A stretch of DNA of 64,000 nt from contig CAYOSX010000001.1 of NCBI GenBank assembly GCA_964406745.1, forward strand, positions 57 through 64,056, given 5' to 3'. The notes under the pieces were generated by a model. It ran no database searches. It was not told where the DNA came from and saw only the letters and a list, made by a program, of their open reading frames with translations. Of this stretch, positions 15,328 through 59,404 are shown piece by piece. Origin of the DNA: an uncultured Opitutus sp. (GTDB lineage: Bacteria > Verrucomicrobiota > Verrucomicrobiia > Opitutales > Opitutaceae). The stretch's first letter is position 1. Each line of letters starts with the position of its first letter. The position numbers were made by a program, and so were the translations under genes.

Positions 15328-15467
15328 ACGAAGAATACCGGCCTTCGGCAGGAGCTTAACTTGACATTATTGGTCCCCTTGCCCCTCTGGAAGGAAGACC
15401 GCAAACGGACTGCGTAGGTACACGACTGCCATGGTGGTTTGGTTGCGGTGTCCCATCCCACGACCCC

Positions 15468-17234
15468 ATGCATTCCACCATTCCGGTTCTCCGGAGGACT
15501 GTTTCATTCCTTGCGGCTCTTTACCTTGCCGGGGCGGTGCCGATTACCGCTCAACCGGCGGCCCCAAGCGACGACGTTGTTGAGTTACCGCAGTTTCTGG
15601 TCACAGACACGCGCGAACTGCCTCCCCCCGAGCCATGGCGTTACGCGCGCATTCCCGGATTTGAGATTCTGTCAAACGCCCGTGATCGCGATGCGGAACG
15701 CTTGATCCGGGACTTCGATCTGTTCCGCCAAGCCCTGGCCGTTGTCTGGCCGTTGCCGGAACGTACACACCGCCCCACGACGCTGATCCTCTGCGGTCGC
15801 CGTGATGCGTTTGATGCATTTTCGCAACGGGAGTCGTCCCGTGTGGACGTCGGGTCCGCGAGTCTATTCGTTCGTAATCCCGAGCAGGCAGCGATCGTCC
15901 TCGACCTGCAGCTCAAGACGTTGGACGTGCTTGCGGACGACGTCGGTATCGATCCGACGGGCAGCACGGATTTCGGATTGGTGGCGGTGGAGCACAACAA
16001 GCAGCTCTATCGCGAGTACATCTATCACCTGTTGAGTTCGGCATCTCCGCGCGCCCCGGCCTGGTTTGAGGAGGGTCTCGCACAGATAATGATGGCGATG
16101 AAATTCGACCAGAATACGATCCGCTTGGGGGTGATTGAAGACCCTAACACGTTGTCCGTTTCGGCGGCGGCTGTGGCGGGCGTCAACGCATCGGGGGACG
16201 CGGATCCGGATCTCCCGGCACTTCCCACAGCACCCGCGGAGGATCGAGATTTCAACGTGGCTTTGGCGCGCAGGGCCCTAGTGCCTTTCGGTGCATTCTT
16301 CTCTGTCGCGCACGGGGCGCCCGAGACCCGCAACCCGTTGGGCAATAATATCTGGGCGAAACAGGCATACGCTTTTGTTCATATGTGCCTTTTCGGTCGC
16401 GGAGCTCGGTTTCAGCAGCCGTTTGCCTTGTTTTTGCAGCGTTTGGGGCGTGGCGAGCCGGTTTCCGAAGAACTTTTCATCGAGTGCTTCAAGATGAACT
16501 ACAAGACGATGTCGCTCGAACTGCGGGCATACGTCCAGTTCACGGATTACAAAGCCCAAGGAGCCCGTGCAAGAAAAGGGGAAGGACTCGCCGCGCCAGC
16601 CGACGTGGACTTTCGCGAAGCGACCCAATCCGAGGTGGGCCGAATCAAGGGCGAAGCATTGATGTTGGCCGGGAGATTGGATCCGGCGCGCCTCGCGATG
16701 ATTGCGCCTTACGTTCGCGGTGAACGAGATCCCGAATTGCTGGCCTCTTTGGGCCTGTTGGAGCGAACGCTGGGAAGCGACGAACGGGCGCGTCGCTTCC
16801 TCGAGGCTGCGGCAACGGCGTCGGTGGATCGGCCTCGGGTCTATCTTGAGGTGGGAAGACTTCGTTACATGGAAGCAGCGGCCGCCCCATCCGGGGAAGG
16901 GGGAATGCTTTCATCGACTCAAGCCGAACACATTCTCTCCGTCTTGCGTAAAGGCCGCACCTATCCTCCCCCCATGCCCGCGCTTTACGAACTTGCTGCG
17001 GATACGCTCGCCTCCGCGGCGCAGGTTCCAGCGAAGGAGGATTTGAAGATGTTGATTGAAGGCGTGAATACGTTTCCTCGACGTTCGTCGCTTACGTTGA
17101 AAGCGGCGCGCCTCTGCGCGCAGCATGGATACCCGAGTGAGGCTCGGGAACTTGCTGAGTTTGGGCTTCGCTTCGCGACCACCTCGGAACAAAAGGCAGA
17201 GTTCGAGTCGCTGCGCTCTACCCTCACTCCATAA
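15468..17234 (+). CDS. Exported hypothetical protein, possibly a degenerate MA-clan/DUF1570-like fold with a helical C-terminus
   Basis: Signal peptide (...LYLAGAVPITAQP). Central REYIYHLL...PAWFEEGLAQ resembles the HExxH...W..EG.A region of DUF1570-type peptidases, but the first His is not in register. Helical repeat-like C-terminus. Confidence 0.6.
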   Translation: MHSTIPVLRRTVSFLAALYLAGAVPITAQPAAPSDDVVELPQFLVTDTRELPPPEPWRYARIPGFEILSNARDRDAERLIRDFDLFRQALAVVWPLPERTHRPTTLILCGRRDAFDAFSQRESSRVDVGSASLFVRNPEQAAIVLDLQLKTLDVLADDVGIDPTGSTDFGLVAVEHNKQLYREYIYHLLSSASPRAPAWFEEGLAQIMMAMKFDQNTIRLGVIEDPNTLSVSAAAVAGVNASGDADPDLPALPTAPAEDRDFNVALARRALVPFGAFFSVAHGAPETRNPLGNNIWAKQAYAFVHMCLFGRGARFQQPFALFLQRLGRGEPVSEELFIECFKMNYKTMSLELRAYVQFTDYKAQGARARKGEGLAAPADVDFREATQSEVGRIKGEALMLAGRLDPARLAMIAPYVRGERDPELLASLGLLERTLGSDERARRFLEAAATASVDRPRVYLEVGRLRYMEAAAAPSGEGGMLSSTQAEHILSVLRKGRTYPPPMPALYELAADTLASAAQVPAKEDLKMLIEGVNTFPRRSSLTLKAARLCAQHGYPSEARELAEFGLRFATTSEQKAEFESLRSTLTP

Positions 17235-38746: not shown

Positions 38747-39514
38747 ATGGCATCATGGATGAAAGTTCTTCGAGGCGTCCTGCTCGCCGGCACGATGGCG
38801 GGGGCGCCGCTTGTCGCGGCTGAGCTGTCCGAGGTGCTGGCGACGGCCCGTGCCTATCTGGGCAGTGAAGCTGCCTTGAGCGACCTTAGGTCCGTCCGCT
38901 TCACTGGTACGTTGGAGACGATGGAGGCTACGCCTGAAGGTCCCCGCCCGGTGAAAGCCGGGCTGGAGATCTATTTTGAGAAGCCGTTCCGGCAGCGCAT
39001 TGAGCTCACGATGGGCGATCGCGTGGAGGTCACTGCGCTGGACGAGTACGAAGGGTGGCAGCGTGTGCACGCCATCGATGAATCCCAAGGATGGCGCCTG
39101 ACGTTGCTTGGCAAGGAGCAGATCCGTCGCCTCCGGGCGAACACGTGGGAGAATCTTTCCTTTTATCACGGACTGGACCGGGCCGGTGGGGAGGTGAAGG
39201 ATCTAGGAACGGTGGAGCTGGAGGGCCAGCGGGTGCGGAAGGTCGCGTTCATACACGGCCCCGCCATCGTGTTTTTTCGGTATTTCGATGAGTCGACCGG
39301 ACGGCTTGTGCTGACTGAAACTGAGAAGCAAGGGATCATCCGTGAAGAAGGCGAAGTGCTGGCGGGCGGAATTCGCTTTCCGGCCAAGATAATCACCACG
39401 AACAAGTTGCCAGATGGAACTACTCGCGAGGTCGTGGTTTCATTCGAACGCATTGAGGTCAATCAGGACCTTCCTGACGAACTCTTCACCGTGCCTCCCG
39501 TGCAGTCGCGTTGA
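38747..39514 (+). CDS. Exported LolA-like / outer-membrane lipoprotein-sorting-like protein (hypothetical)
   Basis: Signal peptide. The beta-rich body has the layout seen in LolA-like DUF proteins (A...Y.G......L.S.R..G....). No catalytic motifs. Confidence 0.5.
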   Translation: MASWMKVLRGVLLAGTMAGAPLVAAELSEVLATARAYLGSEAALSDLRSVRFTGTLETMEATPEGPRPVKAGLEIYFEKPFRQRIELTMGDRVEVTALDEYEGWQRVHAIDESQGWRLTLLGKEQIRRLRANTWENLSFYHGLDRAGGEVKDLGTVELEGQRVRKVAFIHGPAIVFFRYFDESTGRLVLTETEKQGIIREEGEVLAGGIRFPAKIITTNKLPDGTTREVVVSFERIEVNQDLPDELFTVPPVQSR

Positions 39515-39595: not shown

Positions 39596-40894
39596 GTGCG
39601 CCACCTGTCCATTGCCTCCAAGACCTTCGAAGCTGAACTGAACGAATTCTGCCGGAGTACCGTCGTTCCCCGGGAGATTGCGGACTCGGTGACGACCATC
39701 CTCGCGGACGTGCGGCAGCGTGGCGATGAGGCGGTCTCCTACTACGCGGCCAAATTTGACGGCGCCAAGTTGCGGGCGCGCGATTTCCGCGTCAAAACGA
39801 GTGATCTTGCGGCCGCGGCGAAACGGATCTCGCCCGTCGAGATGAAGGCCATGGTGGCGGCGCGCGATAATATCGTCGCCTTCAATCAGCGCGGCCTTCC
39901 GAAGGATTGGAAAGCGCGCAACAAGCAGGGGGCCGAGATTGGTGAGCTGCACTTTCCGTTGCGGCGTGTCGGTCTTTACGTGCCGGGTGGGGAAGTGCCT
40001 CTCGTCTCGACCGTCCTGATGACGGCCACGCTGGCGAAAATCGCAGGATGCCCGGAGGTCGCGGTGTTCACCCCGTCGAATTCGCAGGGGCGCGTGGCCG
40101 ATGGCCTGCTCGCTGCACTTCACCTCGCCGGTGTTGAAGAGGTGTATCGGATCGGCGGCGTGCAAGCCGTGGGTGCAATGGCCTACGGCACCTTCACCGT
40201 TCCGGCCGTGGACAAGGTATTTGGTCCTGGCAATGCGTACGTGTGCGAAGCGAAGCGCCAGGTCTTCGGCACGGTGGGTGTCGATTCGCTGCCCGGCCCC
40301 AGTGAGGTCATGATTATCGCGGACGATTCGGCTCGTCCTGACTTTGCGGCTGCCGACTTGCTGGCTCAGGCGGAGCACGGTTCCGGACGGGAAAAGATCT
40401 ACCTTGTGGCGACCTCGAGCGCGCTCATCGAAGCGATCAACATGGAAATCGAATCCCAAATCAAGACCCTCACACGATCGGAAAAGACCCGTCGCGTGCT
40501 GGGGGAAGGCTTCCTCGCGATTCAGGTCAACAACATGGCGGAGGCCGCCCGTGTGGCGAATCATGTCGCCCCGGAGCATCTCGAGTTATTGGTCGTGCCC
40601 GCCGCGCAGAAGACCTTGATGCGCACCATTACGACGGCGGGCGCCATCATGCTTGGCAACTACACGCCCACGGCGGTGGGTGACTTCACCGCGGGGCCGA
40701 GTCATGTGCTGCCAACCGGTCGTGCCGGAAGGTTCTTCAGCGGACTCCGGGTCGCCGATTTCATGCGCCGGACGAGCATCGTGCGTTACGAACGCGCCAG
40801 CATCAAGAAGGCCGCCCCGGTGGTGTCGGCTTTTGCCACCATGGAAAAGCTCGATGCGCACGGCCGCTCGGTGACGATGCGCGCCATGGGCTGA
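39596..40894 (+). CDS. hisD: Histidinol dehydrogenase
   Basis: ...YVPGG..PL.STVLM.A..A..AG........P......; ...QAEHG... motifs. GTG start at 39596. Confidence 0.96.
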   Translation: MRHLSIASKTFEAELNEFCRSTVVPREIADSVTTILADVRQRGDEAVSYYAAKFDGAKLRARDFRVKTSDLAAAAKRISPVEMKAMVAARDNIVAFNQRGLPKDWKARNKQGAEIGELHFPLRRVGLYVPGGEVPLVSTVLMTATLAKIAGCPEVAVFTPSNSQGRVADGLLAALHLAGVEEVYRIGGVQAVGAMAYGTFTVPAVDKVFGPGNAYVCEAKRQVFGTVGVDSLPGPSEVMIIADDSARPDFAAADLLAQAEHGSGREKIYLVATSSALIEAINMEIESQIKTLTRSEKTRRVLGEGFLAIQVNNMAEAARVANHVAPEHLELLVVPAAQKTLMRTITTAGAIMLGNYTPTAVGDFTAGPSHVLPTGRAGRFFSGLRVADFMRRTSIVRYERASIKKAAPVVSAFATMEKLDAHGRSVTMRAMG

Positions 40895-40989: not shown

Positions 40990-42102
40990 ATGTTCAACGA
41001 ACTTCAACGCCTGACGCTACCCCACATCGAGCGCCTGCATGCCTATACGCCGGGCGTGCAACCGACCGAACCGGGCTGGGTGAAGCTCAACACCAATGAG
41101 TGTCCGTATGCTCCGAGCCCGCGCGTCGCCGAGGCGATCCGACGAGAGCTCGGCAATGACGGTGAAAGCCTCCGCCTTTATCCGAATCCACGGAGCGCCC
41201 CCTTGCGACAGTTGATCGCGCGCCTGCATGGCATCACGGAGGACCATGTTATCATTGGCAACGGTTCCGATGATGTGCTGAACCTGCTCGTACGCTGCTT
41301 TGCCGGTCCGCAGGCGGCGGCGGGATATACGTTTCCAAGCTACTCGCTCTACCCGGTGCTGATCGCGATTCAGAATGGTGCCTTCCGGACCATCGAGTTC
41401 AGCCGCGAGATGACGCTGCCGGTCGAGGCGATCGTCAATTCCCAGGCGCCCGTTTTTTTTCTCACTTCGCCCAACGCACCCACCGGAGTCGGTTTCACCC
41501 AGGAGCAGCTTTCCAGCGTGCTGTCACGGTACAAGGGTATGCTGGTGGTGGACGAGGCCTACGCTCCGTTTGCGCGGGAGAATGCCGTGCCGCTCCTCTC
41601 GAGGCACCCACGCCTGGTGATCACGCGGACACTCTCCAAGGCGCATGCACTTGCGGGTATCCGTGTGGGCTACGCTCTGGGGCATCCCGATGTGATTGAT
41701 CTGCTCGATCGGGTACGCGACAGCTACAACGTGAACCGTCTTTCCCAAGCGGCCGCCTTTGCTGCGCTCAGCGATCCGGGTTATTACGACGCGATCATTG
41801 GCAAGATTGTACGGACACGCGATTACTGGCTCGGCGAATGGACCGGCCGTCGCGGATGGTTCGCCTATCCGTCGGAAGCCAACTTCATCTTTACGGAGCC
41901 GCGCGATCTCTCAGGCCGTGCTGGACCGGATGTTGCCAAGGATCTCTATACCTTCCTGTTGTCGCGCAAGATCCTCGTGCGGTACTTCCCGAGCCACGCC
42001 TTGACCGCAACCTTCCTCCGCATCAGCGTCGGCACCGACGATGAAATGCTCGCCGTCAATGAAGCCTTCGACGCATGGCAACAGAACGCAAAGCAACGCT
42101 GA
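40990..42102 (+). CDS. hisC: Histidinol-phosphate aminotransferase (cytoplasmic, no signal peptide)
   Basis: [23 protein letters not shown] and [15 protein letters not shown] (PLP Lys) motifs. Located between hisD and hisB. Confidence 0.93.
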
Positions 42103-42671
42103 CTCGTAAAACAGCCGAAACCGACATCGCCCTGACCCTGGCGCTTGACGGGCGGGGTCGCTCGGAGATCGCCACCGGGGTGCCGTTCTTCGACCACATG
42201 CTCACCCTGTTTGCCAGGCACGGGCTTTTCGATCTGTCGGTGAATTGCAAAGGCGACGTCGACGTCGATTACCATCACACGGTCGAGGATGTCGGATTGG
42301 TCCTTGGGGATGCGTTCAAGCAGGCCCTTGGGGACAAGCTGGGCATCCGGCGCTACGGTTTCTTCCTGCTCCCGATGGACGAGTCGCTTGCCCGAATCGT
42401 GGTCGATATCGGCGGGCGTCCCCATCTCGTTTACGACGCCGAGGCGCCGACCATGTTCGTGCGCGATTTCAACATCGTGCTCGTGAAGGAGTTTTGCCGG
42501 GCGTTTAGCAACGCGCTCGGCTGCAACCTGCACGTGAAGCTGGAGTACGGTGAGGAGCCGCATCACGTCGCCGAAGCGATTTTCAAGGGCCTGGCCCGGG
42601 CGCTCGATGTCGCGACTCAGGTCGATGCCCGTGCGGCGGATCAGTTGCCGAGCACCAAGGGTAAGATCTGA
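42075..42671 (+). CDS. hisB: Imidazoleglycerol-phosphate dehydratase
   Basis: RKTAETDI...L.LDG.G......TG.PFFDHML..F..HG.FDL......D...D.HHT.ED.G..LG. The only ATG (42075) overlaps the hisC 3' end by 28 nt. Confidence 0.95.
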
Positions 42672-42681
42672 AAACAGACTC

Positions 42682-42706
42682 GCGCCCGGGGTTTGACCCC
42701 GGGCGC
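42682..42706. terminator. GC-rich hairpin between convergent hisB and aminotransferase paralogue 1 (putative bidirectional terminator)
   Basis: gcgcccgggg/ccccgggcgc 10-bp stem with loop tttga. No clear U-tract on either side. Confidence 0.45.
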
Positions 42707-42768
42707 AAGGGTCAGGTTGTCTTGGAGTCGGTGGAGGAGCCGAGCAAATGCTGACGCAGTGCGTTGGC

Positions 42769-43902
42769 TCAGGTTTTGCCGAGAATTCGTGAGAGCTCGC
42801 CGAGGAACATGTCCATCTGCTCTTTCGTGCCGATGCTCACGCGGCACCAGTTGCCGTAGGTCCCCTCCGGCACGCCGCTCTCGCGCGTGCTGCCGATGAG
42901 GATGTTGGCCTCGCGCATTTTTGCGTTCAGTTCACGGCCGGGGATGCCGGCGTGAAAATAGATGAAGGCGCCTTGAGGGTTCTTCACGTAGTCGATGCCC
43001 ATCTTGGCGAACTCGGCGCAGACGTAGTTGCGAACATCGGAGTAATTCCTGCGGTTCATTTCGAGGTGGGCTTCGTCCTTCAACGCCTCCTGCGCCGCGA
43101 TGGCGGCGAGGAAGCTCGGGCCGCTGGTCGAGAACTCGGCCAGCCTGTCGAGCACCTCAGGATGCCCCATCCCGTAGCCGAAACGCAGCCCGGCCATGCC
43201 GTGGCCCTTCGAGAAGGTACGGGTCACCAGCAGGTTTTTCCTCACGTTTACCAGCGGAGCCATGGTGTTGGCCTTCAACCCGCTGTCCGCGATCTCCAGG
43301 TAGGCCTCGTCGACGAACACGAGGATGTGTTGCGGCACCGACATGATGAAACGCCGCAGTTCGGCCGGATCGGCCAGCGTGCCGGTCGGATTGTTCGGAT
43401 TGCAGATGTAGACGATGACGGTGTTGTCGTCGATCTCGCGGGCCAGCGCCTTGAAGTCGTAGCCCATGTCGGCGCCGAGCGGCGCGAATTTCACGTCGCC
43501 GCCACGTTGCTCGAACCGATTGATGAGCGAGGTGTAACCCATGGCGGTGGTGACCACATTCTTGCCCGGTTTCGCATAGGCGAGTGCGGTGAGCGAGAGG
43601 AGCGGGCCGGATCCCGCGGTGGTCATGATGTGGTTTTCTTTCACGCCGTTGTAGGCGGCGCAGAGTTTGATGAACTCCGAGATCTCATCGCGGTTGTAGT
43701 AGTTGCCTGTCGAAATTTCCGACGTGAGGCGTTCGAGGGCCTTGGGCGAGAAGCCCCAGACGTTTTCGTTACTGCTGATCTTCACCTTGCCATCAATCTT
43801 GACCGGCTGGGCATGGAGCAGGGTGGCGGGAATAAACGTGGTGGCGGACATGAGCGCGGCGCAGGTCAGGCGGCGGGCGAGGGTGGATCGGAGCGTATTC
43901 AT
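42769..43902 (-). CDS. Exported HisC-family PLP aminotransferase, paralogue 1
   Basis: ATG at 43902 gives MNTLRSTLARRLTCAALMSATTFIPATLLHA/QP (signal peptide containing an RR pair). SSNEN, YICNPNNPTG, VDEAYLE and RTFSKGHGMAGLRFGY motifs are present. Confidence 0.85.
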   Translation of the reverse strand: MNTLRSTLARRLTCAALMSATTFIPATLLHAQPVKIDGKVKISSNENVWGFSPKALERLTSEISTGNYYNRDEISEFIKLCAAYNGVKENHIMTTAGSGPLLSLTALAYAKPGKNVVTTAMGYTSLINRFEQRGGDVKFAPLGADMGYDFKALAREIDDNTVIVYICNPNNPTGTLADPAELRRFIMSVPQHILVFVDEAYLEIADSGLKANTMAPLVNVRKNLLVTRTFSKGHGMAGLRFGYGMGHPEVLDRLAEFSTSGPSFLAAIAAQEALKDEAHLEMNRRNYSDVRNYVCAEFAKMGIDYVKNPQGAFIYFHAGIPGRELNAKMREANILIGSTRESGVPEGTYGNWCRVSIGTKEQMDMFLGELSRILGKT

Positions 43903-43946
43903 AGGGAGTGTATCGATTTTATGGATCAGATCGACGCTCCCCATCG

Positions 43947-43961
43947 AGCACCGGATATGCC
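43947..43961 (-). promoter_or_regulatory. Candidate sigma54 (-24/-12) promoter of paralogue 1
   Basis: Minus strand reads GGCAT-ATCCG-GTGCT. The GG-N10-GC spacing matches TGGCAC-N5-TTGC exactly. Lies ~45 nt upstream of the ATG at 43902. Confidence 0.5.
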
Positions 43962-44020
43962 GCGTCCGCGGTCGCCGCCGTGCAAAGAAATCATACCGCG
44001 ATCTTCTTTTTCATGGCACG

Positions 44021-44046
44021 AAAAAGGGCCGGTCAGTGACCGGCCC
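44021..44046 (-). terminator. Rho-independent terminator after paralogue 2
   Basis: Minus strand: gggccggtc-act-gaccggccc followed by TTTTT, 30 nt downstream of the stop at 44077. Confidence 0.7.
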
Positions 44047-44076
44047 GGAAGGAGCAGGACAGACTCTGATGAAGGC

Positions 44077-45198
44077 TCAGGTCTTTCCGAGGATTCGTGC
44101 GAATTCTCCGAGGAAGAGATCCATTTCCTCGCGTGTTCCGAGGCTCACGCGGGCCCACTCACCGTAGGCGCCTTCGGGTACGCCGCTTTCACGGGAGCCG
44201 CTGATGAAGACTTTCGCGTCGCGCATCCTGGCGACCAGCTCGGAGCCGGGCATGCCGGCCTGGAAGTAGACGAAGGCTCCTTGGGGAGCGGCGTACTTGA
44301 CGCCGAGACGATCGAACTCCTTGCAGACGTAGTCACGCACCTCCTTGTAGTTCTTCCGGTTGGCCTCCATGTGCGCCTTGTCCTTGATCGCTTCCTGGGC
44401 GGCGATGGCGGCGAGGAAGCTCGGGCCTCCGGTGTGAAACCGGCGCAGATTGGCGAGTACTTCCGGGTTGGCGACGCCATAGCCGGCGCGAAGCCCGGCC
44501 ATGCCATGGGCCTTGGAGAAGGTGCGGGAGATCAGGAGATTTTTGCGCACCTTGACGAGCGGGGCCATGGTGTTCGCCTGGAGGCCGGTGTCCGACAACT
44601 CGAGATACGCCTCGTCCACGAAGACAAGGATGTGCGCCGGCACCGACATGATGAAGCGACGCAGCTCGGCGGGATCGGCGATGACGCCCGTCGGATTGTT
44701 CGGATTGCAGATATAAACGATGGCGGTGTTCTCGTCGATCTCGCGCGCCAACGCCTTGAAATCGTAACCCATGTCGGCGCTGAGCGGCGCGAATTTGATG
44801 TCGCCGCCGTGCTCCGTAAACGCGCGCGTGAGCTGCGTGTAACCCATGGCGGTGGTGACGACATTCTTGCCCGGTTTCGCATAGGCGAAGGCGGTGAGCA
44901 TGAGAATCGGTCCGGAGCCTGGCGTCGTGAGGATGAAGTCCTCCTTGACCCCCTCGGCAGCCGCGCAGAGGCGCACCATCTCGGCTACCTCGGTGTGATT
45001 GTAATAGTTGCCCGTGACGAGGGCCTCTTGCATGCGGGCGAGGGCTTTTGGCGTGTAGCCGAAGGCGTTCTCATTGCTGCTCAGGCGGGCGCGGGCGTCG
45101 CCTTGGGCTTGAAGGGACAGGCCGGGCAGGAGGGTGGCGAACGCGAGGGCGCCAGCAAGCAGGCGACTGCGCGGAGAAGGGAGGGCGGATCGTTTCAT
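44077..45198 (-). CDS. Exported HisC-family PLP aminotransferase, paralogue 2
   Basis: ATG at 45198 gives MKRSALPSPRSRLLAGALAFATLLPGLSLQA/QG. The SSNEN, NPNNPTG and RTFSKAHGMAGLRAGY motifs match paralogue 1, and long identical runs are shared with it. Confidence 0.85.
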   Translation of the reverse strand: MKRSALPSPRSRLLAGALAFATLLPGLSLQAQGDARARLSSNENAFGYTPKALARMQEALVTGNYYNHTEVAEMVRLCAAAEGVKEDFILTTPGSGPILMLTAFAYAKPGKNVVTTAMGYTQLTRAFTEHGGDIKFAPLSADMGYDFKALAREIDENTAIVYICNPNNPTGVIADPAELRRFIMSVPAHILVFVDEAYLELSDTGLQANTMAPLVKVRKNLLISRTFSKAHGMAGLRAGYGVANPEVLANLRRFHTGGPSFLAAIAAQEAIKDKAHMEANRKNYKEVRDYVCKEFDRLGVKYAAPQGAFVYFQAGMPGSELVARMRDAKVFISGSRESGVPEGAYGEWARVSLGTREEMDLFLGEFARILGKT

Positions 45199-45250
45199 AG
45201 TGGTGAAGGTCCAGGCTTGCGGGGCGCACGGCCGGGATGCGTAGCGAGGG

Positions 45251-45265
45251 AGCACCCGGTGTGCC
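45251..45265 (-). promoter_or_regulatory. Candidate sigma54 (-24/-12) promoter of paralogue 2
   Basis: Minus strand reads GGCAC-ACCGG-GTGCT with correct spacing, ~53 nt upstream of the ATG at 45198. Confidence 0.5.
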
Positions 45266-45312
45266 GGCTGCCCGCGGGCACGGAGGAAAAAAACTAATGC
45301 GATGCTCCGGAA

Positions 45313-46428
45313 TCAGGTTTTGCCGAGGATGCTCGCCGTCGCCCCGAGGAAGAGCTCCATGTCTTCCTGCGTGCCGATGCTGACCCGCACCCATTCGGCA
45401 TAGTCGGTCTCCAGCGGACCGAGGCCGAAGGGGCGTGTGACCATGATCTTCTTCTCGAGCATCTTCTTCACGAATTCCGAGGAATCCATGCCGGCCTTGA
45501 AAAGGATGAAGGCGCCTTCCGGCTTCGCATAGGCGAGGCCAAGGCGGTCGAACTCCTTGCAAACGTAGGCACGGACCTCCTGGTACTTGCGCACGTTCTC
45601 CTGAAGGTGAGCCTGATCCTTGATCGCTTCCTGCGCGGCGATGGCGGCGAGGTAGCTGGGCGAGGCGCCGATGTTGTGGCGCTGCAGCTTCGCCAGTGTA
45701 TCCGGATGTGCGATACCGTAGCCGGCGCGGAAGCCCGCGAGGGCATAGGCTTTCGAGAACGTGCGGCTGACCACGAGATTGCGACGGACCTTGACCAAAG
45801 GCGCCATCGAGTTTGCGGGCACGCCTCCGGCCGAGAGCTCAAGGTAGGCCTCGTCAACGAAGACGAGGACGTTGGCCGGGACCGACATGATGAAGCGGCG
45901 GAGCTCCGCCGGATCGGCGAGCACGCCGGTGGGATTGTTCGGATTGCAGATATAGACCATCGACGTGTGGTCATCGATGCTCAGCGCCATGGCCTTGAAA
46001 TCGTAGCCGAGCTGCTCATTGACCGTGACGTATTTGATGGTGCCACCCCACTTCGCGAACGTGGACGTCAGTTGCGGGTAGCCTGGCGCCGCGGTCACGA
46101 TGTTGACCCCCTCGCGTCCAAAAGCGGCGCCGGTCATTTCGAGCAAGGGGCCCGACCCGGCGGTGGGAAGGATGTAGTTGGGTGCGACGCTCTCTTTCTC
46201 GGCGCAGATGCGCACCATCTCATCGACCTCGTTGCGATTGTAGTAATTGGCGCTTTCAACGTAGCGGATGACCGCTTCCTTCGCCTTCGGGCTGTAGCCG
46301 AAGGGGTTTTCGTTGCTGCCGAGGCGCAGGGGACTGGAGCTGTCGGTGGGAGCGGCGGACAAGGCGGTGAGGCCGGCAAGGGCCAGGCCCGCGTGGAGGC
46401 AGAGGGAACGCAGGGAGTGTTTTTTCAT
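45313..46428 (-). CDS. Exported HisC-family PLP aminotransferase, paralogue 3
   Basis: MKKHSLRSLCLHAGLALAGLTALSA/AP signal peptide. GSNENPFGYSPKA, YICNPNNPTG, VDEAYLE and RTFSKAYALAGFRAGY motifs are present. Confidence 0.85.
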   Translation of the reverse strand: MKKHSLRSLCLHAGLALAGLTALSAAPTDSSSPLRLGSNENPFGYSPKAKEAVIRYVESANYYNRNEVDEMVRICAEKESVAPNYILPTAGSGPLLEMTGAAFGREGVNIVTAAPGYPQLTSTFAKWGGTIKYVTVNEQLGYDFKAMALSIDDHTSMVYICNPNNPTGVLADPAELRRFIMSVPANVLVFVDEAYLELSAGGVPANSMAPLVKVRRNLVVSRTFSKAYALAGFRAGYGIAHPDTLAKLQRHNIGASPSYLAAIAAQEAIKDQAHLQENVRKYQEVRAYVCKEFDRLGLAYAKPEGAFILFKAGMDSSEFVKKMLEKKIMVTRPFGLGPLETDYAEWVRVSIGTQEDMELFLGATASILGKT

Positions 46429-46460
46429 GGTGGATGGAGGCAGGGTGACGTCCGTCAGGG

Positions 46461-46475
46461 AGCACCGGCCGTGCC
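46461..46475 (-). promoter_or_regulatory. Candidate sigma54 (-24/-12) promoter of paralogue 3
   Basis: Minus strand reads GGCAC-GGCCG-GTGCT with correct spacing, ~33 nt upstream of the ATG at 46428, in the divergent region shared with hisH. Confidence 0.5.
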
Positions 46476-46568
46476 CGGGACCGATCCGATGTCTTGCAAA
46501 AAACTCATGGGTCGGGGCGCGATTTTCGGGATGGCGCGGAGCGTGGGCGGGCGTAAGGTGTCAGGTCC

Positions 46569-47225
46569 ATGTCCGCCACCGTCATCGCCGTCATCGACAA
46601 TGGAATCTGCAACCTGCGCAGCGTGACCAAGGCCCTCGAGGCCGTGGGCGCGGCTCCTCAGGTCGTGCGCACACCGGCTGAAGTCGAGGCGGCGGATGCC
46701 GCCGGCCTCGTATTGCCCGGCGTGGGCGCGCTGCGCGATTGCGTGGCTTCGCTCCGGGCCACCGGGCTTTCCGAGACGGTGAAGGCGTGGATTGCCGCGG
46801 ACCGTCCCTTTCTCGGCGTGTGTCTCGGCATGCAGGCCCTGTTTGAGCGGTCGGAAGAAGGCGGGGTGACGGGCCTCGGGGTCTTTCCGGGCGAAGTTCG
46901 CCGATTCCGCCTGCCGAGCGAGTTCAAGGTGCCTCACATGGGATGGAATACGGTGCAATTTGTGCAGCCCCATTCGCCGCTCGGGGAGGGCCTTGCGGTG
47001 TCCGGAGAGTCGTTCTACTTCGTCCACAGCTATTATTGCGTGCCGGCAGATCGCAGCTTGGTGCTCGCCGAGTGTGATTACGGCGGTCCGTTCACCGCGG
47101 CGATTGGTCGCGGGGTCTGTTTCGCCACCCAGTTTCACCCTGAGAAGAGTCAGGCGAAAGGACTGCAGATCTACCGGAATTTTGCCGCGGTGGCGGAGAA
47201 GGGCAGCGCCTTGGCTTCCCGCTGA
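46569..47225 (+). CDS. hisH: Imidazole glycerol phosphate synthase, glutamine amidotransferase subunit
   Basis: I.VID.G.GN..S..KAL...G........P......D...LPGVG.F......L...; GVCLGMQ (catalytic Cys); ...QFHPEKS. Confidence 0.95.
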
Positions 47226-49450: not shown

Positions 49451-50194
49451 ATGATCCTTCTCGGTTTCAATATCGACCATAGCGCAACGATCCGGCAGGC
49501 CCGGTACCGGCAGTCCGAGAGCACGGTGGGAGGGGCGGTGGAGCCGGATCCGGTGATGTGTGCCGTGCTGGGAGAACGCGCCGGCGCCGATGGCATTACC
49601 GTTCATCTTCGGGAGGATCGGCGCCACATCCAGGAGCGTGACGTCTGGCGCCTGCGGGAATCGATCGGCACCCGGCTCAATCTGGAGATGGCCTGCACCC
49701 CCGCCATGATCGAGTTCGCGCTCAAGCTGAAGCCCGAGTCGGTCTGCGTCGTCCCGGAAAGCCGCGAGGAGGTCACGACGGAAGGTGGTCTCGACGTCGT
49801 TGGGCTTCGAGCGAAGGTGGCCGCGTGCGTCGACGCGATGAACGCCGCGGGAATCATCACGAGTCTCTTCATCGACCCCGATGAGGCGCAGATCGAAATG
49901 AGTGCCCAGCTGCGTGCTCCCTGGATCGAGTTGCACACGGGCGCCTATGCCAACGCCTACCAAGGCCCCCGGCGAGCAGAGGAGTTCAAACGCCTCCGCT
50001 TGGGCGCCACCTTTGGCCACCAGTGCGGCCTCGTGGTCAACGCCGGCCACGGCATCAATTACATCAACGTGTCCGAAGTCCGTACGCTGCCGCACCTGCA
50101 CGAGCTAAACATCGGCCACAGCATCATCAGCCGGGCGCTTTTTACGGGGGTCGAGGAAGCGGTGCGCGAGATGAAGGCGCGGATGAAAGGCTAG
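49451..50194 (+). CDS. pdxJ: Pyridoxine 5'-phosphate synthase
   Basis: LG.NIDH.AT.RQAR....EPDPV..A.L.E.AGADGITVHLREDRRHI.ERDV..L......LNLEMA; ATG at 49451. Confidence 0.95.
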   Translation: MILLGFNIDHSATIRQARYRQSESTVGGAVEPDPVMCAVLGERAGADGITVHLREDRRHIQERDVWRLRESIGTRLNLEMACTPAMIEFALKLKPESVCVVPESREEVTTEGGLDVVGLRAKVAACVDAMNAAGIITSLFIDPDEAQIEMSAQLRAPWIELHTGAYANAYQGPRRAEEFKRLRLGATFGHQCGLVVNAGHGINYINVSEVRTLPHLHELNIGHSIISRALFTGVEEAVREMKARMKG

Positions 50195-55628: not shown

Positions 55629-57227
55629 TTATCCCGGCCGCACGCGCGAGTCGCTCGCGGCCTTCCTCTTTTTCGGGAAGTCCGCGATCGCGTGCAGGCC
55701 ACGACTCTCCTTGCGCTGAAGCGCGCAGGCGACGATGAGCTCGGCGACCTGGCAGAGGTTGCGCAGTTCAAGCAGCTGCGGGTCCACGGAAAAGTTCCAG
55801 TAGTACTCCTTGATCTCGCGCGAGAGGGTTGCGATGCGCGTTCGCGCCCGTTCGAGCCGCTTCGTGGTGCGCATGATGCCGACGTAGTCCCACATCACAT
55901 GGCGAAGCTCCGTCCAGTTGTGGCTGACCACGACCCGTTCGTCCGAATCGTGTCCGCCGAGGTCGACCCACTCGGGAAGGGCCCCGTTTTCGGCCGTCTT
56001 CAGTCGCTTGAGATAACGCTCGACCGACGCCGCCCCGCGGTGGGCCATGACCACCGCCTCGAGCAGGGAGTTGCTCGCGAGCCGATTCGCCCCGTGCAGG
56101 CCGGTGCAGGCGACCTCGCCGCAAGCGTAGAGGCCGGGCAGGGAGGTTTCCGCGGCAAGGTTGGTCGCGACGCCGCCGCAGGTGTAGTGAGCGGCGGGGA
56201 CGACGGGCAGGTAGTCCTTGGCGAGATTGTAGCCGAGGCGCTTGCAGGTCTGGTAAATCTGGGGGAAACGCTCGCGCAGGAACGGCTCCGTCCGGTGGGT
56301 GATGTCGAGCCAGACGTGCGGAGAGCCCGACTTCTTCATCTCCGTGTCGATCGCGCGCGCCACGATGTCGCGGGGCGCGAGGTCCGCCATCGGATGGTAT
56401 CCGCGCATGAACGCCTCGCCGGCGAGGTTGCGAAGGATGGCGCCCTCGCCGCGCACCGCCTCGCTGACGAGGAAACGGTCGTTGGTTGTTGAATACAACG
56501 TGGTCGGATGGAACTGGATGAATTCCATGTTCCGCACTTCGACCCCGGCCCGGTAGGCCATGGCGATGCCATCGCCGGTGGCGATGTCGGGGTTGGTTGT
56601 GTAGAGGTACACCTGGCCGGCTCCGCCCGAGGCGAGCACGATGACAGGCGTGCGAAAGGCGACCACCCTCCCGTCGCGAACATCGAGCGCATACAGACCG
56701 CGCACGCGGTCCGGTCCGGCCACGCGGTGGCGTCCGGGCTTGCGGCGTGTGATGATGTCGACGGCGAAGAAATGTTCGAACAGCGCGACCTGCGGCTCGA
56801 GGGCGATGGCGCGCAGCAAGGCCTCCTCGATGGCTTTGCCCGTCATGTCTTTCACATGCAGGATCCGCCGTTCGCTATGCCCGCCTTCGCGTCCGAGATC
56901 GTAGGCGCCGCGCTTGTTGCGGGAGAACGTGAGGCCGAGGTCGACCAGTTCCTGCACCCGGGCGGGGCCTTCGCGTACGATCTGCTCGACGACCTTGCGG
57001 TTGCACAGGCCGTCCCCGGCGACGAGCGTGTCATCGACGTGCTTGGCGAAGTCGTCCTTGCGGTCCGTGACGACCGCGATGCCGCCTTGGGCCCAGTTGG
57101 TGTTGGAATCGGCCTTGTTCTTCTTCGTCAGGATGGCGACCGACTTCCCCTGCCGGGCGATTTTCAGGGCAAAGCTCAGGCCGGCGATGCCGCTGCCGAC
57201 AACGATCACATCATAGTGACGGGACAT
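55629..57227 (-). CDS. nadB: L-aspartate oxidase
   Basis: FAD motif DVIVVGSGIAGLS..., ...AQGGIA... and ...HYTCGG... signatures of NadB/succinate-dehydrogenase flavoproteins. 532 aa. Confidence 0.95.
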   Translation of the reverse strand: MSRHYDVIVVGSGIAGLSFALKIARQGKSVAILTKKNKADSNTNWAQGGIAVVTDRKDDFAKHVDDTLVAGDGLCNRKVVEQIVREGPARVQELVDLGLTFSRNKRGAYDLGREGGHSERRILHVKDMTGKAIEEALLRAIALEPQVALFEHFFAVDIITRRKPGRHRVAGPDRVRGLYALDVRDGRVVAFRTPVIVLASGGAGQVYLYTTNPDIATGDGIAMAYRAGVEVRNMEFIQFHPTTLYSTTNDRFLVSEAVRGEGAILRNLAGEAFMRGYHPMADLAPRDIVARAIDTEMKKSGSPHVWLDITHRTEPFLRERFPQIYQTCKRLGYNLAKDYLPVVPAAHYTCGGVATNLAAETSLPGLYACGEVACTGLHGANRLASNSLLEAVVMAHRGAASVERYLKRLKTAENGALPEWVDLGGHDSDERVVVSHNWTELRHVMWDYVGIMRTTKRLERARTRIATLSREIKEYYWNFSVDPQLLELRNLCQVAELIVACALQRKESRGLHAIADFPKKRKAASDSRVRPG

Positions 57228-58177: not shown

Positions 58178-59404
58178 ATGATCCGCATCAACGAAAACTA
58201 CCTGAAGCTCAAGGCTTCGTACCTCTTCTCGGATATCGCCAAGCGCGTCTCCGCCTATACGCAGGCCAATCCCGACAAGCCTGTCATTCGCCTGGGCATC
58301 GGCGATGTCACCGAGCCCCTGCCGCAGGTTTGCATCGAGGCCCTCCATGCCGGGGCCGACGAGCTCGCCAATCGTGCGACCTTCAAGGGCTACGGTCCCG
58401 AGCAGGGGTACGCCTTCCTGCGTGAAGTCATTGCGCAAAACGACTACGCGGCCCGTGGCTGCAAGATCGACGCGGACGAGATATTCGTGTCGGACGGCTC
58501 GAAGTGCGATTGCGGCAACATCCAGGAAATCTTCGCGACGGAAGGGCTGAAGCTCGCGATTCCGGATCCGGTGTATCCGGTTTATGTCGACACGAACGTG
58601 ATGGCCGGGCGCACCGGGCCCAATCTCGACGGCCGTTATTCAGGCATCACCTACCTCGAGTCGACCCCGGGCAATGGTTACGTGCCCTCGATCCCGACGG
58701 AGGCGACGGACCTCATCTACCTTTGCTTCCCCAACAATCCCACGGGGGCGGTTGCCACGCGGGAGCAACTCGCCGCTTGGGTCGCCTACGCACGGGCGAA
58801 CAAGGCGATCATTCTCTTCGACAGCGCCTATGAGGCCTACATCCGCGACCCGAAGATTCCGCATAGCATCTACGAGATCGACGGCGCGCGCGAGTGTGCG
58901 ATCGAGTTCCGCAGTTTTTCGAAGACGGCTGGATTCACCGGGACCCGTTGCGCGTACACGGTGGTGCCGAAGTCGCTCATGGCCTACGATGCGGCCGGCG
59001 GTGCGCATGCCGTCCATGCGCTCTGGAACCGCCGTCACACGACGAAGTTCAATGGGGTTTCCTATCCGGTGCAAAAGGCCGCCGCCGCGATCTACACCGA
59101 GAAAGGCAAGGCTCAGGTCAAGGCGATGACCGACGCCTACCTGGTCAATGCGTCCCTCATCCGTGATGCCGTGACCAAGCTCGGCTACGCATGCGTCGGC
59201 GGGGACAACGCGCCCTACATCTGGATCAACACCGGGCGCGATTCCTGGGAGTTCTTCGATCTCCTTCTCAACAAGGCGCAGGTCGTCTGCACGCCTGGCG
59301 CCGGCTTCGGCAAGTGTGGCGAAGGGCATGTGCGCATCAGCGCCTTCAATAGCCGCGAGAACGTGGAGAAGGCGCTCGAGCGCATCGCCGCGGCCTTGAA
59401 GTAA
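58178..59404 (+). CDS. dapL: LL-diaminopimelate aminotransferase
   Basis: [24 protein letters not shown]......P....I.LGIGDVT.PL; ...SFSK.AGFTG.RC.Y.VVP... characteristic of DapL (found in the PVC superphylum, cyanobacteria and plants). Confidence 0.9.

What the first reader, a model, noticed from the sequence alone, without database searches (positions are those of the whole stretch)
42769..46428. Three tandem signal-peptide-bearing HisC-like PLP aminotransferases inserted antisense between hisB and hisH
A 3.7-kb minus-strand block splits an otherwise colinear hisD-hisC-hisB / hisH arrangement. It encodes three paralogues of 371-377 aa that share long identical runs. Examples are DMGYDFKALAREID, (V/M)YICNPNNPTG, ADPAELRRFIMSVP, LVFVDEAYLE, APLV.VR(K/R)NL and (G/A)PS(F/Y)LAAIAAQEA. 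All keep the HisC-family signatures, including the PLP lysine (RTFSK(A/G)(H/Y)..AG.R.GY) and the (S/G)SNEN motif, so they look catalytically competent. Unlike the nearby genuine hisC, each starts with a basic n-region, a hydrophobic core and an AxA-type cleavage site only ~10 residues before the first conserved motif. The sites are LHA/QP, LQA/QG and LSA/AP, and one paralogue has an RR pair. There is no in-frame ATG just after the hydrophobic segment that could give a cytoplasmic form. Exported class I/II transaminases are very unusual. The only well-known periplasmic PLP enzymes I can recall are broad-spectrum racemases. A periplasmic, triplicated and independently regulated transaminase set would imply extracytoplasmic amino acid/keto acid interconversion, for nitrogen scavenging, detoxification, or production of aryl-pyruvate or signalling metabolites. 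This is the strongest candidate in the window for an undescribed system.
Basis: partly seen in the sequence, partly recalled or inferred. Interest (0 to 1): 0.7.

Follow-up and report, generated by a model that had tools for sequence, protein, structure and literature searches.

The report
Three exported HisC-like aminotransferases, sigma-54 driven
Three neighbouring genes in a soil/water Verrucomicrobium (Opitutaceae) encode vitamin-B6 enzymes that look built for export to the space outside the cell membrane, each with its own sigma-54-type promoter motif; such exported transaminases are already known from one studied example (PtaA of Pseudomonas), but what this branch does is unknown.

Summary
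Three minus-strand genes (42769-43902, 44077-45198, 45313-46428) lie between hisB and hisH. They encode 377, 373 and 371 aa HisC-like PLP aminotransferases with intact catalytic residues. Each has an N-terminal n-region, hydrophobic core and LxA site.

The N-terminal segment is real. 114 of 120 close homologues keep it, and in an NJ tree all signal-bearing relatives cluster apart from cytoplasmic HisC (bootstrap 76-91%).

The novelty claim is overstated. PtaA of Pseudomonas is a characterised Tat-exported periplasmic transaminase of this lineage. I also found textbook twin-arginine signals on relatives in Bacteroidota, Proteobacteria, Acidobacteriota, Gemmatimonadota and Planctomycetota. The window proteins fail the curated cut-offs for PtaA, PRK09105 and HisC, so they form an uncharacterised Opitutales branch.

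New findings:
- Each gene has its own sigma-54-type -24/-12 motif (GGCAY-N5-GTGCT). These are the only three matches in 64 kb, and they are conserved upstream of orthologues.
- The copies are old (70-76% DNA identity), and the 2-3 copy array beside hisH is conserved in Opitutaceae.
- The twin arginine is kept in one paralogue and lost in two, so the export route (Tat or Sec) is open.

Substrate and role are unknown. Verdict: a new member of a known kind, of moderate interest.

The parts
45313..46428 (-). P3: exported HisC-like PLP aminotransferase, 371 aa. It is the first gene of the block and is divergent from hisH.
   Evidence: ORF. PF00155 171 bits. PRK09105 225, hisC 216 and PtaA 195 bits, all below cut-off. 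AF2 model pLDDT 90.6; Foldseek TM (normalised by target length, TMt) 0.84-0.88 to 3FFH/3LY1/4R2N.
44077..45198 (-). P2: exported HisC-like PLP aminotransferase, 373 aa.
   Evidence: The longer GTG start at 45255 lies inside the -12 promoter element, so ATG 45198 is the start.
42769..43902 (-). P1: exported HisC-like PLP aminotransferase, 377 aa. It is the only paralogue that keeps a twin arginine (ARRLTCAAL).
   Evidence: The longer ATG at 43944 lies 3 nt after the promoter motif, upstream of the predicted transcript start, so ATG 43902 is the start.
46354..46428 (-). Predicted signal peptide of P3 (residues 1-25, MKKHSLRSLCLHAGLALAGLTALSA | AP).
   Evidence: Hydrophobicity and charge analysis. 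The segment is conserved in kind but not in sequence among orthologues. It has low pLDDT and forms a detached helix 7-22 in the AF2 model.
45106..45198 (-). Predicted signal peptide of P2 (residues 1-31, ...PRSRLLAGALAFATLLPGLSLQA | QG).
43810..43902 (-). Predicted signal peptide of P1 (residues 1-31, ...LARRLTCAALMSATTFIPATLLHA | QP). It is possibly Tat-type.
   Evidence: RR is kept in 5 of 5 P1 orthologues.
46461..46475 (-). Sigma-54-type -24/-12 promoter element of P3 (GGCACGGCCGGTGCT).
   Evidence: Conserved upstream of orthologues in L081, L082, L085 and L089.
45251..45265 (-). Sigma-54-type -24/-12 promoter element of P2 (GGCACACCGGGTGCT).
43947..43961 (-). Sigma-54-type -24/-12 promoter element of P1 (GGCATATCCGGTGCT).
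46494..46509 (-). T-rich box (CATGAGTTTTTTGCAA) about 20 nt upstream of the -24 element of P3. Its function is unknown; it may be a DNA bend or a regulator site.
   Evidence: It recurs upstream of all three window promoters and in L081/L084 orthologues.
45285..45299 (-). T-rich box upstream of the P2 promoter (CATTAGTTTTTTTCC).
43981..43995 (-). T-rich box upstream of the P1 promoter (TATGATTTCTTTGCA).
44026..44046 (-). Intrinsic-terminator-like hairpin plus T-run after P2.
   Evidence: 9 bp stem, 8 GC pairs, TTTTT.
42679..42709 (-). Strong terminator-like hairpin after P1, lying between P1 and the convergent hisB.
   Evidence: 14 bp stem, 11 GC pairs.

Best explanation
The block encodes three old paralogues of a signal-peptide-bearing branch of the HisC/aromatic (subfamily I-beta) PLP aminotransferases. 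This is the lineage that contains the characterised periplasmic transaminase PtaA.

Shown:
- Each protein keeps the full catalytic set and a confident fold-type-I model.
- Each begins with a conserved-in-kind signal peptide.
- In a distance tree they sit inside a clade in which every sampled member carries a Tat or Sec-like signal.
- Each gene is preceded by a conserved -24/-12 sigma-54-type element.
- P2 and P1 are each followed by terminator-like hairpins.

Inferred:
- After export and cleavage at LxA, the roughly 345-residue mature enzymes form homodimers in the periplasm. There they transfer alpha-amino groups between periplasmic amino compounds and 2-oxo acids.
- The lid tyrosine of cytoplasmic HisC falls in the removed segment, and the HisC-specific Asn is replaced by Gly. 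Histidinol phosphate is therefore unlikely to be the substrate, and the pocket is probably wider.
- P1, which keeps RR, probably leaves by Tat with PLP already bound. P2 and P3, which have lost RR, may use Sec and bind PLP outside, or may use Tat with a degenerate motif.
- Transcription needs RpoN and an unidentified enhancer-binding activator, so the set is switched on by a specific signal. Nitrogen limitation is the most plausible candidate.

The physiological substrate is not known.
For: Family and catalysis:
- PF00155 scores 168-180 bits.
- Catalytic residues are invariant.
- The AF2 model has pLDDT 90.6, with residues 1-30 at 47-55 and a detached helix 7-22.
- Foldseek top hits are 3FFH, 3LY1 and 4R2N, TM (normalised by target length) 0.84-0.88.

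Export signal:
- 114 of 120 close homologues have an n-region, an h-region and a small -1 residue before the SNEN motif.
- Relatives at 30-38% identity in Bacteroidota, Steroidobacteraceae, Alteromonas, Gemmatimonadota, Acidobacteriota and Planctomycetota have signals such as DRRQWLKTAGLTG and SRRSFLHFSAAAS.
- In the NJ tree all signal-bearing sequences fall in one cluster. Bootstrap for the split was 91/100 in a first run that carried a numerical warning, and 76/100 in each of two corrected runs (different subsamples); the Opitutales clade gets 99-100/100.
- L035 and L041 pass the PRK09105 cut-off and score 380-417 on the PtaA model.
- PtaA is a Tat-exported, PLP-bearing periplasmic transaminase (PMC6206403).

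Promoters:
- GGCAY-N5-GTGCT has 3 matches in 64 kb, against 0.21 expected. All three lie 30-50 nt upstream of the three ATGs on the correct strand.
- The general pattern GGCAY-N5-KTGCW also gives only these three.
- The element is conserved upstream of orthologues in L081 (x3), L084 (x2, one with ATGCT), L085 (x2) and L089, within otherwise diverged spacers.

Pocket: the specificity tetrad of PMC4703992, mapped through the 4R2N alignment, gives Gly93/Tyr117/Leu120.

Context consistent with periplasmic work: in Pelagicoccus and DG1235 the orthologue is the last gene of a TonB-dependent receptor-ExbB-ExbD-TonB-TPR cluster. TonB-dependent receptors also recur next to Tat-type relatives.
Against: - No dedicated signal-peptide predictor could be run. 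My classification is a hydrophobicity, charge and motif heuristic.
- There is no experimental localisation for any member of the Opitutales branch.
- All three proteins score far below the curated cut-offs of PtaA (177-195 against 500) and PRK09105 (220-227 against 444).
- The RR pair comes and goes between close orthologues (P2 group 24/47, P3 group 3/12). That is atypical for true Tat substrates and leaves the route unresolved.
- No rpoN, enhancer-binding protein or tat gene is in the window, and the promoter assignment rests on sequence pattern and conservation only.
- No conserved partner gene points to a substrate.
Confidence: 0.7

Rival explanations
1. PtaA-like tailoring enzymes. The three proteins would mature a secreted secondary metabolite, such as a siderophore, in the periplasm by converting an amino group on it to a keto group. 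They would not act on free amino acids.
For: The only characterised relative, PtaA, does exactly this on the glutamate residue of pyoverdine. Pelagicoccus and DG1235 orthologues sit at the end of a TonB-dependent receptor/ExbBD/TonB cluster of the kind used for siderophore uptake. Loss of the lid tyrosine and Asn-to-Gly in the pocket would suit a bulky substrate.
Against: No NRPS, PKS or siderophore genes were found among the window ORFs I scanned: ten in Pfam and eight flanking ones in NCBIfam. The block lies in a housekeeping region (ribosomal proteins, guaA, his, gltA, pdxJ). Two or three diverged copies per genome, and presence across many phyla, argue for a general role. PtaA model scores are far below cut-off.
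Confidence: 0.15
2. Membrane-anchored rather than soluble periplasmic enzymes. The N-terminal hydrophobic segment would not be cleaved and would tether the catalytic domain to the outer face of the inner membrane.
For: The -3 residue is Leu in all three (LxA), which is a weaker signal-peptidase site than AxA. The hydrophobic stretches are long, at 21-23 uncharged residues.
Against: A small residue at -1 followed by a conserved mature N-terminus (A/G-K-P-T...) recurs in nearly all 120 homologues, as expected for a processed site. Tat-type relatives have ordinary cleavable signals.
Confidence: 0.08
3. Cytoplasmic isozymes of HisC or aromatic aminotransferase. The N-terminal extension would be an artefact of start-codon choice, and the position in the his cluster would reflect a role in histidine or aromatic amino-acid biosynthesis.
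For: The genes lie between hisB and hisH. The hisC model scores 205-216 bits. P1 has a GTG at codon 40, just before the SNEN motif.
Against: A genuine hisC that passes its cut-off lies next door. The extension is kept, with signal-peptide character, in 114 of 120 homologues. P2 and P3 have no ATG or GTG after the hydrophobic core; only rare CTG codons occur just before the SNEN motif (P2 codon 39, P3 codon 34). The promoter elements sit upstream of the proposed ATGs. The proteins group with Tat-signal proteins, not with cytoplasmic HisC. The HisC-specific Asn is Gly.
Confidence: 0.04

Closest known systems
PtaA, periplasmic transaminase A of Pseudomonas fluorescens/aeruginosa (NCBIfam NF051461; Ringel, Dräger & Brüser, J Biol Chem 2017, as summarised in PMC6206403)
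   Same: Both are HisC-like fold-type-I PLP transaminases with an N-terminal export signal. PtaA acts in the periplasm. Homology runs nearly full length; for P1 and P3 the PtaA-model alignment starts at residues 9 and 5 (model position 5). Both fall in the same signal-bearing clade.
   Different: The window proteins score 177-195 bits against a cut-off of 500. Two of the three lack the twin arginine. There are 2-3 tandem copies rather than a single gene. They carry sigma-54-type promoter elements. No pyoverdine genes were seen in the window, and I know of no pyoverdine production outside pseudomonads (own knowledge), so the substrate is very likely different.
PRK09105 subfamily of PLP-dependent aminotransferases (NCBIfam NF006580), mostly Tat-signal proteins of unknown function
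   Same: It is the best-scoring curated model for all three proteins (220-227 bits). True members found here (L035 Planctomycetaceae, L041 Solibacter) carry Tat signals and cluster with the window proteins against cytoplasmic HisC.
   Different: The window proteins fall below the 444-bit cut-off. The Opitutales branch is a separate, well-supported clade (99-100% bootstrap).
HisC, histidinol-phosphate aminotransferase (TIGR01141), and mycobacterial ArAT Rv3772 (PDB 4R2N)
   Same: They share the fold, the PLP lysine, the Asn/Asp/Tyr/Arg cofactor ligands and both substrate-anchoring arginines.
   Different: The window proteins fall below the HisC cut-off (205-216 against 276.6). They have a signal peptide in place of the N-terminal lid that carries the tyrosine. 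The pocket is Gly/Tyr/Leu, against Asn/Tyr/Met in HspAT and Val/Phe/Leu in ArAT.
PDB 3LY1, 'putative histidinol-phosphate aminotransferase' of Pectobacterium atrosepticum (structural genomics, function unknown)
   Same: It is the best sequence match among solved structures (E 3e-40) and a top structural match (TM 0.83-0.88). The crystallised chain reads APSTDNPIRINFNEN from residue 12 (first aligned residue 11), close to the predicted mature N-termini here. Its NCBIfam score profile is the same.
   Different: Identity is 28%. Whether its native form has a signal peptide could not be checked here.
Other exported PLP enzymes: PvdN (Tat) and the periplasmic broad-spectrum amino-acid racemases such as BsrV and Pseudomonas putida Alr (Sec; own knowledge for the racemases)
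   Same: They show that PLP enzymes can work in the periplasm, either carried out folded with cofactor (PvdN) or exported by Sec.
   Different: They belong to unrelated families and catalyse different reactions.

Membership tests
Class I/II aminotransferase, fold type I (Pfam PF00155) | Profile score above the gathering cut-off, and the fold | tested here: met
   168-180 bits against 19.7. AF2 pLDDT 90.6 and Foldseek TM up to 0.88 to I-beta aminotransferases.
Class I/II aminotransferase, fold type I (Pfam PF00155) | Schiff-base lysine and the PLP ligands (Asn, Asp, Tyr, Arg) | tested here: met
   K226, N165, D192, Y195, R234 and R348 (P3 numbering) are invariant in 22 relatives and present in all three paralogues.
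HisC, histidinol-phosphate aminotransferase (TIGR01141 equivalog) | Score at or above the curated cut-off of 276.55 | tested here: not met
   205.6, 204.8 and 216.0 bits. The neighbouring hisC scores 284.4.
HisC, histidinol-phosphate aminotransferase (TIGR01141 equivalog) | Hydrophilic substrate pocket (Asn103/Tyr127/Met129/Tyr261* of M. tuberculosis HspAT) and an N-terminal lid tyrosine | tested here: not met
   Asn is replaced by Gly (AGSGP); Tyr is kept; Met is replaced by Leu. The lid tyrosine position falls in the predicted cleaved segment. The mapping is by sequence alignment only.
PtaA, pyoverdine biosynthesis transaminase (NF051461 equivalog) | Score at or above the curated cut-off of 500 | tested here: not met
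   188.3, 177.0 and 194.9 bits.
PtaA, pyoverdine biosynthesis transaminase (NF051461 equivalog) | Twin-arginine (Tat) signal peptide | tested here: inconclusive
   P1 has ARRLTC, conserved in 5 of 5 orthologues. P2 has PRSRLL and P3 has SLRSLC, without RR. RR is present in 24/47 and 3/12 of their orthologue groups. No TatP or SignalP was available.
PtaA, pyoverdine biosynthesis transaminase (NF051461 equivalog) | Acts on the glutamate residue of pyoverdine or ferribactin in a pyoverdine producer | not testable with these tools
   No pvd or NRPS genes were found among the window ORFs scanned. The organism is an Opitutaceae relative.
PRK09105 subfamily (NF006580) | Score at or above the curated cut-off of 444 | tested here: not met
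   226.6, 219.5 and 225.2 bits. The true members L035 and L041 score 484 and 503.
Signal-bearing (exported) clade of HisC-like aminotransferases (defined here, not curated) | An N-terminal signal peptide conserved across orthologues, and grouping with Tat-signal relatives against cytoplasmic HisC | tested here: met
   114 of 120 homologues carry the signal. The NJ split is found on the full data, with bootstrap 76-91/100.
Sigma-54 (RpoN)-dependent promoter | GG at -24 and GC at -12 with consensus spacing (TGGCAC-N5-TTGCW), placed just upstream of the gene and conserved in orthologues | tested here: met
   GGCAC/T-N5-GTGCT occurs at 46475-46461, 45265-45251 and 43961-43947. These are the only three matches in the window and they are conserved in L081, L084, L085 and L089.
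Sigma-54 (RpoN)-dependent promoter | Dependence on RpoN and on an enhancer-binding ATPase with an upstream binding site | not testable with these tools
   No rpoN or GAFTGA-type activator is in the window, and no palindromic upstream site was recognised. Only a T-rich box was found.

The most novel reading that the evidence does not exclude
Opitutaceae run a sigma-54-switched periplasmic transamination module made of two or three diverged isozymes. The isozymes would have lost the N-terminal lid and widened their pocket. Under nitrogen limitation they would strip amino groups from amino compounds that the cell cannot import, passing them to an exported 2-oxo acid to make glutamate or alanine for uptake. 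Two of the isozymes would have moved from Tat to Sec export and would therefore have to fold and bind PLP outside the cytoplasm. That combines a mode of nitrogen scavenging and a cofactor-loading route that have not been described for transaminases.
Probability: 0.15. Interest if true: 0.7.

Novelty: new member of a known kind. Interest (0 to 1): 0.45.

Why it matters
Transamination outside the cytoplasm has been demonstrated for only one enzyme, PtaA. This locus, and the relatives collected here, suggest that the signal-bearing HisC-like lineage is large, spans at least six phyla, and is functionally uncharted.

The Opitutaceae set is a convenient entry point for four reasons:
- It has two to three diverged isozymes side by side.
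- Each has a recognisable sigma-54-type promoter that can be tested genetically.
- There is a natural contrast between an RR-bearing and two RR-less signal peptides. That contrast bears on how PLP enzymes get their cofactor outside the cell.
- A related solved structure, 3LY1, is available.

If the substrates turn out to be free amino acids, this would add a periplasmic step to bacterial nitrogen and keto-acid economy. If they are secreted metabolites, it would extend PtaA-type tailoring beyond pseudomonads.

Tried and rejected
- **Recent local duplication of hisC.** Rejected. Identity to the adjacent hisC is 26%, lower than to Tat-type relatives in other phyla (up to 38%).
- **Recent triplication or gene conversion as the source of the identical peptide runs.** Rejected. 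DNA identity between copies is 70-76% with no long identical stretches, and each paralogue has its own orthologue group.
- **Horizontal insertion.** No support. GC is 0.59-0.64 across the block, as in the flanks, and GC3 is 0.81-0.83, within the range of other window genes. Synteny is conserved.
- **A conserved partner gene across 38 Tat-type loci.** None was found. Only small clusters appeared, including TonB-dependent receptors, and there were no tandem copies outside Opitutales.
- **Riboswitch, leader or tRNA features.** There were no Rfam gathering-level hits and no tRNAs in the window.
- **Sigma-70-type promoters.** One weak match before P1, no more than chance.
- **rpoN, enhancer-binding protein, tatA or tatC in the window.** None found by motif search.
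- **Literature.** Searches for other periplasmic or Tat-dependent transaminases and for sigma-54 in Opitutaceae found nothing beyond PtaA. The primary PtaA paper is not held.
- **Genome scan.** Close contexts came from exact-protein look-ups instead.

Full report
**What is there**

The minus strand between 42769 and 46428 carries three ORFs. I take the starts at ATG 43902, ATG 45198 and ATG 46428. This gives P1 (377 aa), P2 (373 aa) and P3 (371 aa), transcribed in the order P3, P2, P1.

The flanking genes pass curated NCBIfam cut-offs:
- hisD 39596-40894
- hisC 40990-42102
- hisB 42075-42671
- hisH 46569-47225

hisH is followed by citrate synthase, a VC0807-family membrane protein and pdxJ, so the his cluster is already fragmentary there.

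P1 and P2 are 67% identical, P1 and P3 are 51% identical, and all three are about 26% identical to the adjacent hisC. At the DNA level the copies are only 70-76% identical, with no long identical stretches. The shared peptides therefore reflect purifying selection on old duplicates, not recent duplication or gene conversion. Base composition and GC3 do not set the block apart from the rest of the window.

**Enzyme family and competence**

All three match Pfam PF00155 at 168-180 bits. The Schiff-base lysine (RTFSK), the NPNNPTG asparagine, the VDEAY aspartate and tyrosine, the PLP-phosphate arginine and the C-terminal substrate arginine are present in all three. They are also invariant in an alignment of 22 relatives.

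An AlphaFold2 model of P3 has mean pLDDT 90.6. Residues 1-30 score only 47-55 and form a detached helix at 7-22. Foldseek places the model with subfamily I-beta aminotransferases: 3FFH, 3LY1 and 4R2N, with TM-scores (normalised by target length) of 0.84-0.88.

The best curated models are PRK09105 (220-227 bits, cut-off 444), hisC (205-216, cut-off 276.6) and pyoverdine PtaA (177-195, cut-off 500). None is reached. The proteins are therefore competent-looking aminotransferases that belong to none of the named families.

**Is the N-terminal segment a real export signal?**

Each protein begins with a net-positive n-region, followed by 21-23 uncharged residues. The 11-residue Kyte-Doolittle maximum is 1.7-2.2, against 0.09 for the real HisC. 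An LxA site follows (LHA/QP, LQA/QG, LSA/AP), 6-8 residues before the SNEN motif.

Of the 120 closest homologues, all Opitutaceae, Pelagicoccus or other Verrucomicrobia where named, 114 have the same architecture. The sequence itself varies freely, which is the signature of a signal peptide.

No ATG lies between the hydrophobic core and the SNEN motif. The only alternative start there is a GTG at codon 40 of P1.

About 45 of them carry textbook twin-arginine signals, for example DRRQWLKTAGLTG, SRRDWFKSTLALTA and SRRSFLHFSAAAS. These come from Bacteroidota, Gamma- and Alphaproteobacteria, Gemmatimonadota, Acidobacteriota and Planctomycetota. The rest are ordinary cytoplasmic HisC with the PY.PGK lid.

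In a neighbour-joining tree built without the N-termini, every signal-bearing sequence falls on one side and every cytoplasmic one on the other:
- The split has 76-91% bootstrap support in subsamples.
- The Opitutales clade has 99-100% support.
- Two members of the signal-bearing side (L035, L041) pass the PRK09105 cut-off and score 380-417 on the PtaA model.

I could not run SignalP or TatP, so the export call rests on these comparative arguments.

**What is already known**

PtaA, 'periplasmic transaminase A', of Pseudomonas fluorescens is a normal PLP transaminase. It is carried folded, with its cofactor, through the Tat pathway, and it converts the glutamate residue of pyoverdine to 2-oxoglutarate in the periplasm. 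Its discoverers noted homologues in species that make no pyoverdine and proposed other periplasmic pathways (review PMC6206403; the primary paper is not held).

This locus is best filed as an uncharacterised branch of that kind. Literature searches found no other characterised periplasmic transaminase.

**Tat or Sec?**

P1 keeps ARRLTCAAL, and all five P1 orthologues keep the RR. P2 reads PRSRLLAGAL and P3 reads SLRSLCLHAGL.

Within their orthologue groups RR is present in 24 of 47 (P2) and 3 of 12 (P3). It flips between close relatives, for example QSRRSRLL, QSRPSRLL and QSRQSRLL.

True Tat substrates normally hold RR fixed, so this suggests relaxed dependence on Tat in the Opitutales branch. 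Lineage-specific variant motifs are known elsewhere, for example in Leptospira (PMC4758666), so that possibility cannot be excluded.

The route matters because it decides whether PLP is bound inside or outside the cytoplasm. It remains open.

**A new observation: sigma-54-type promoters**

Upstream of each ATG lies GGCA(C/T)-N5-GTGCT:
- 46475-46461 for P3
- 45265-45251 for P2
- 43961-43947 for P1

This fits the -24 GG / -12 GC consensus TGGCAC-N5-TTGCW with exact spacing. The specific pattern has three matches in the 64-kb window on both strands, against 0.21 expected. The general pattern GGCAY-N5-KTGCW finds the same three and nothing else.

The element recurs upstream of orthologues in spacers that are otherwise diverged:
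- L081 and L082: all three genes
- L084: both genes, one with ATGCT
- L085: both genes
- L089: the first gene
- The Pelagicoccus-type locus L087: absent

Its position also settles the start codons. The GTG at 45255 is the -12 element itself. The ATG at 43944 lies before the predicted transcript start.

A T-rich box (consensus near CATGAGTTTTTTGCA) sits about 20-35 nt upstream of the -24 element in the window, in L081 and in L084. It may bend the DNA or bind a regulator.

Terminator-like hairpins follow P2 (44046-44026) and P1 (42709-42679). The three genes thus look like separately fired, sigma-54-dependent units. No rpoN or activator gene is in the window, and dependence on RpoN is inferred, not shown.

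**Synteny**

The arrangement hisH, then 2-3 exported aminotransferases on the opposite strand, then hisB-hisC-hisD, is conserved:
- L081 and L082 have three copies.
- L084 and L085 have two copies.
- In L089 a pair still sits next to hisH, but with other neighbours.

In Pelagicoccus mobilis and strain DG1235 the orthologue is instead the last gene of a TonB-dependent receptor-DUF3450-ExbB-ExbB-ExbD-TonB-TPR cluster. In another Opitutales genome it lies among a ThuA/cytochrome c protein and an M28 peptidase.

Among 38 Tat-type loci from other phyla no universal neighbour emerged, though TonB-dependent receptors recur. None has tandem copies. The tandem array is thus an Opitutaceae feature. The link to outer-membrane uptake systems is suggestive only.

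**Substrate clues**

The specificity-determining residues reported for M. tuberculosis are Asn103/Tyr127/Met129/Tyr261* in HspAT and Val86/Phe110/Leu112/Phe246* in ArAT (PMC4703992). I mapped them through the 4R2N alignment.

The window proteins have Gly (AGSGP, invariant in the clade), Tyr and Leu at the first three positions. The fourth could not be aligned reliably.

The lid tyrosine (Y19 in the window's HisC, HAYTPG) corresponds to a position inside the predicted cleaved segment. Histidinol phosphate is therefore an unlikely substrate, and the pocket may be more open. This rests on sequence alignment only.

**Most likely mechanism**

- Shown: competent fold-type-I aminotransferases with conserved signal peptides, membership of the signal-bearing clade that includes PtaA-like proteins, and individual conserved -24/-12 elements.
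- Inferred: export (P1 probably by Tat; P2 and P3 by Sec or a degenerate Tat signal), cleavage at LxA, and dimeric periplasmic enzymes exchanging amino groups between periplasmic amino compounds and 2-oxo acids. Expression would be switched on through RpoN and an unknown activator, with nitrogen limitation the most plausible signal.

I give this 0.7. Three rivals remain: PtaA-like tailoring of a secreted metabolite (0.15), membrane-anchored rather than soluble enzymes (0.08) and cytoplasmic isozymes with mis-called starts (0.04).

**Verdict**

This is a new, uncharacterised member of a known kind, the exported PtaA-like HisC-family transaminases. It has three features of its own: an old tandem array, sigma-54-type promoters, and erosion of the twin-arginine motif. 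Interest is moderate (0.45). The family is large and almost unstudied, but the central idea of a periplasmic transaminase is not new.

Noticed in passing
window 1915-4038 (-): A hybrid histidine kinase/response regulator (PAS, HisKA, HATPase_c, receiver) has an N-terminal domain that matches the plant ethylene-receptor ETR1 N-terminal domain (PF25487, 133 bits).
   Followed up: no
window 10257-17234 (+): Four consecutive sizeable ORFs (327, 434, 786 and 588 aa; GC3 0.66-0.72) have no Pfam match at E<=1e-5. Upstream, at 5201-8530 (-), lies a 1109-aa protein whose only hit is a C-terminal LysM domain.
   Followed up: no
window 49454-50194 (+); also L081, L084, L085: pdxJ (pyridoxine 5'-phosphate synthase, the PLP biosynthesis step) lies three genes from the exported PLP enzymes, in the order hisH-gltA-VC0807 family-pdxJ-acpS. 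This neighbourhood is conserved in relatives. It may be coincidence.
   Followed up: partly
L087 1995-11140 and L091 1-9140: In strain DG1235 and Pelagicoccus mobilis the orthologous exported aminotransferase is the last same-strand gene of a TonB-dependent receptor-DUF3450-ExbB-ExbB-ExbD-TonB-TPR cluster. It lies 60-76 nt after the TPR gene and has no sigma-54-type element upstream.
   Followed up: partly
N-termini of P0019, P0037, P0042 and P0048 (P2 orthologue group); window 45160-45198: The twin arginine flips on and off between close orthologues (QSRRSRLL / QSRPSRLL / QSRQSRLL / PSRSSRLL). This is unusual for Tat substrates and remains unexplained.
   Followed up: partly
window 43903-43912, 45199-45208, 46429-46440 (-) and orthologues in L081-L089: No Shine-Dalgarno sequence precedes the three ATGs. 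Instead a C-rich CCACC or CTCCC lies directly before the start codon, and it is conserved in orthologues.
   Followed up: no
window 38747-39514 (+); L081 16809-17579, L084 9773-10543: A 255-aa protein with its own signal-peptide-like N-terminus (MASWMKVLRGVLLAGTMAGAPLVAA) has no NCBIfam match here, and relatives have no Pfam match. It is conserved between guaA and hisD.
   Followed up: no
window 58178-59404 (+) and 55629-57227 (-): A further class I/II aminotransferase (PF00155, 408 aa; N-terminus not examined) lies near an FAD-dependent flavoprotein of the succinate dehydrogenase/fumarate reductase/L-aspartate oxidase type (PF00890 plus PF02910; a NadB identity is my guess, not tested).
   Followed up: no
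L081 11345-11359 (-), L085 10130-10144 (-): The reverse complement of the DNA encoding the conserved SNENA motif (AGCAACGAGAATGCC) happens to match the sigma-54 search pattern. This is a coding artefact to exclude when scanning relatives for the promoter.
   Followed up: yes
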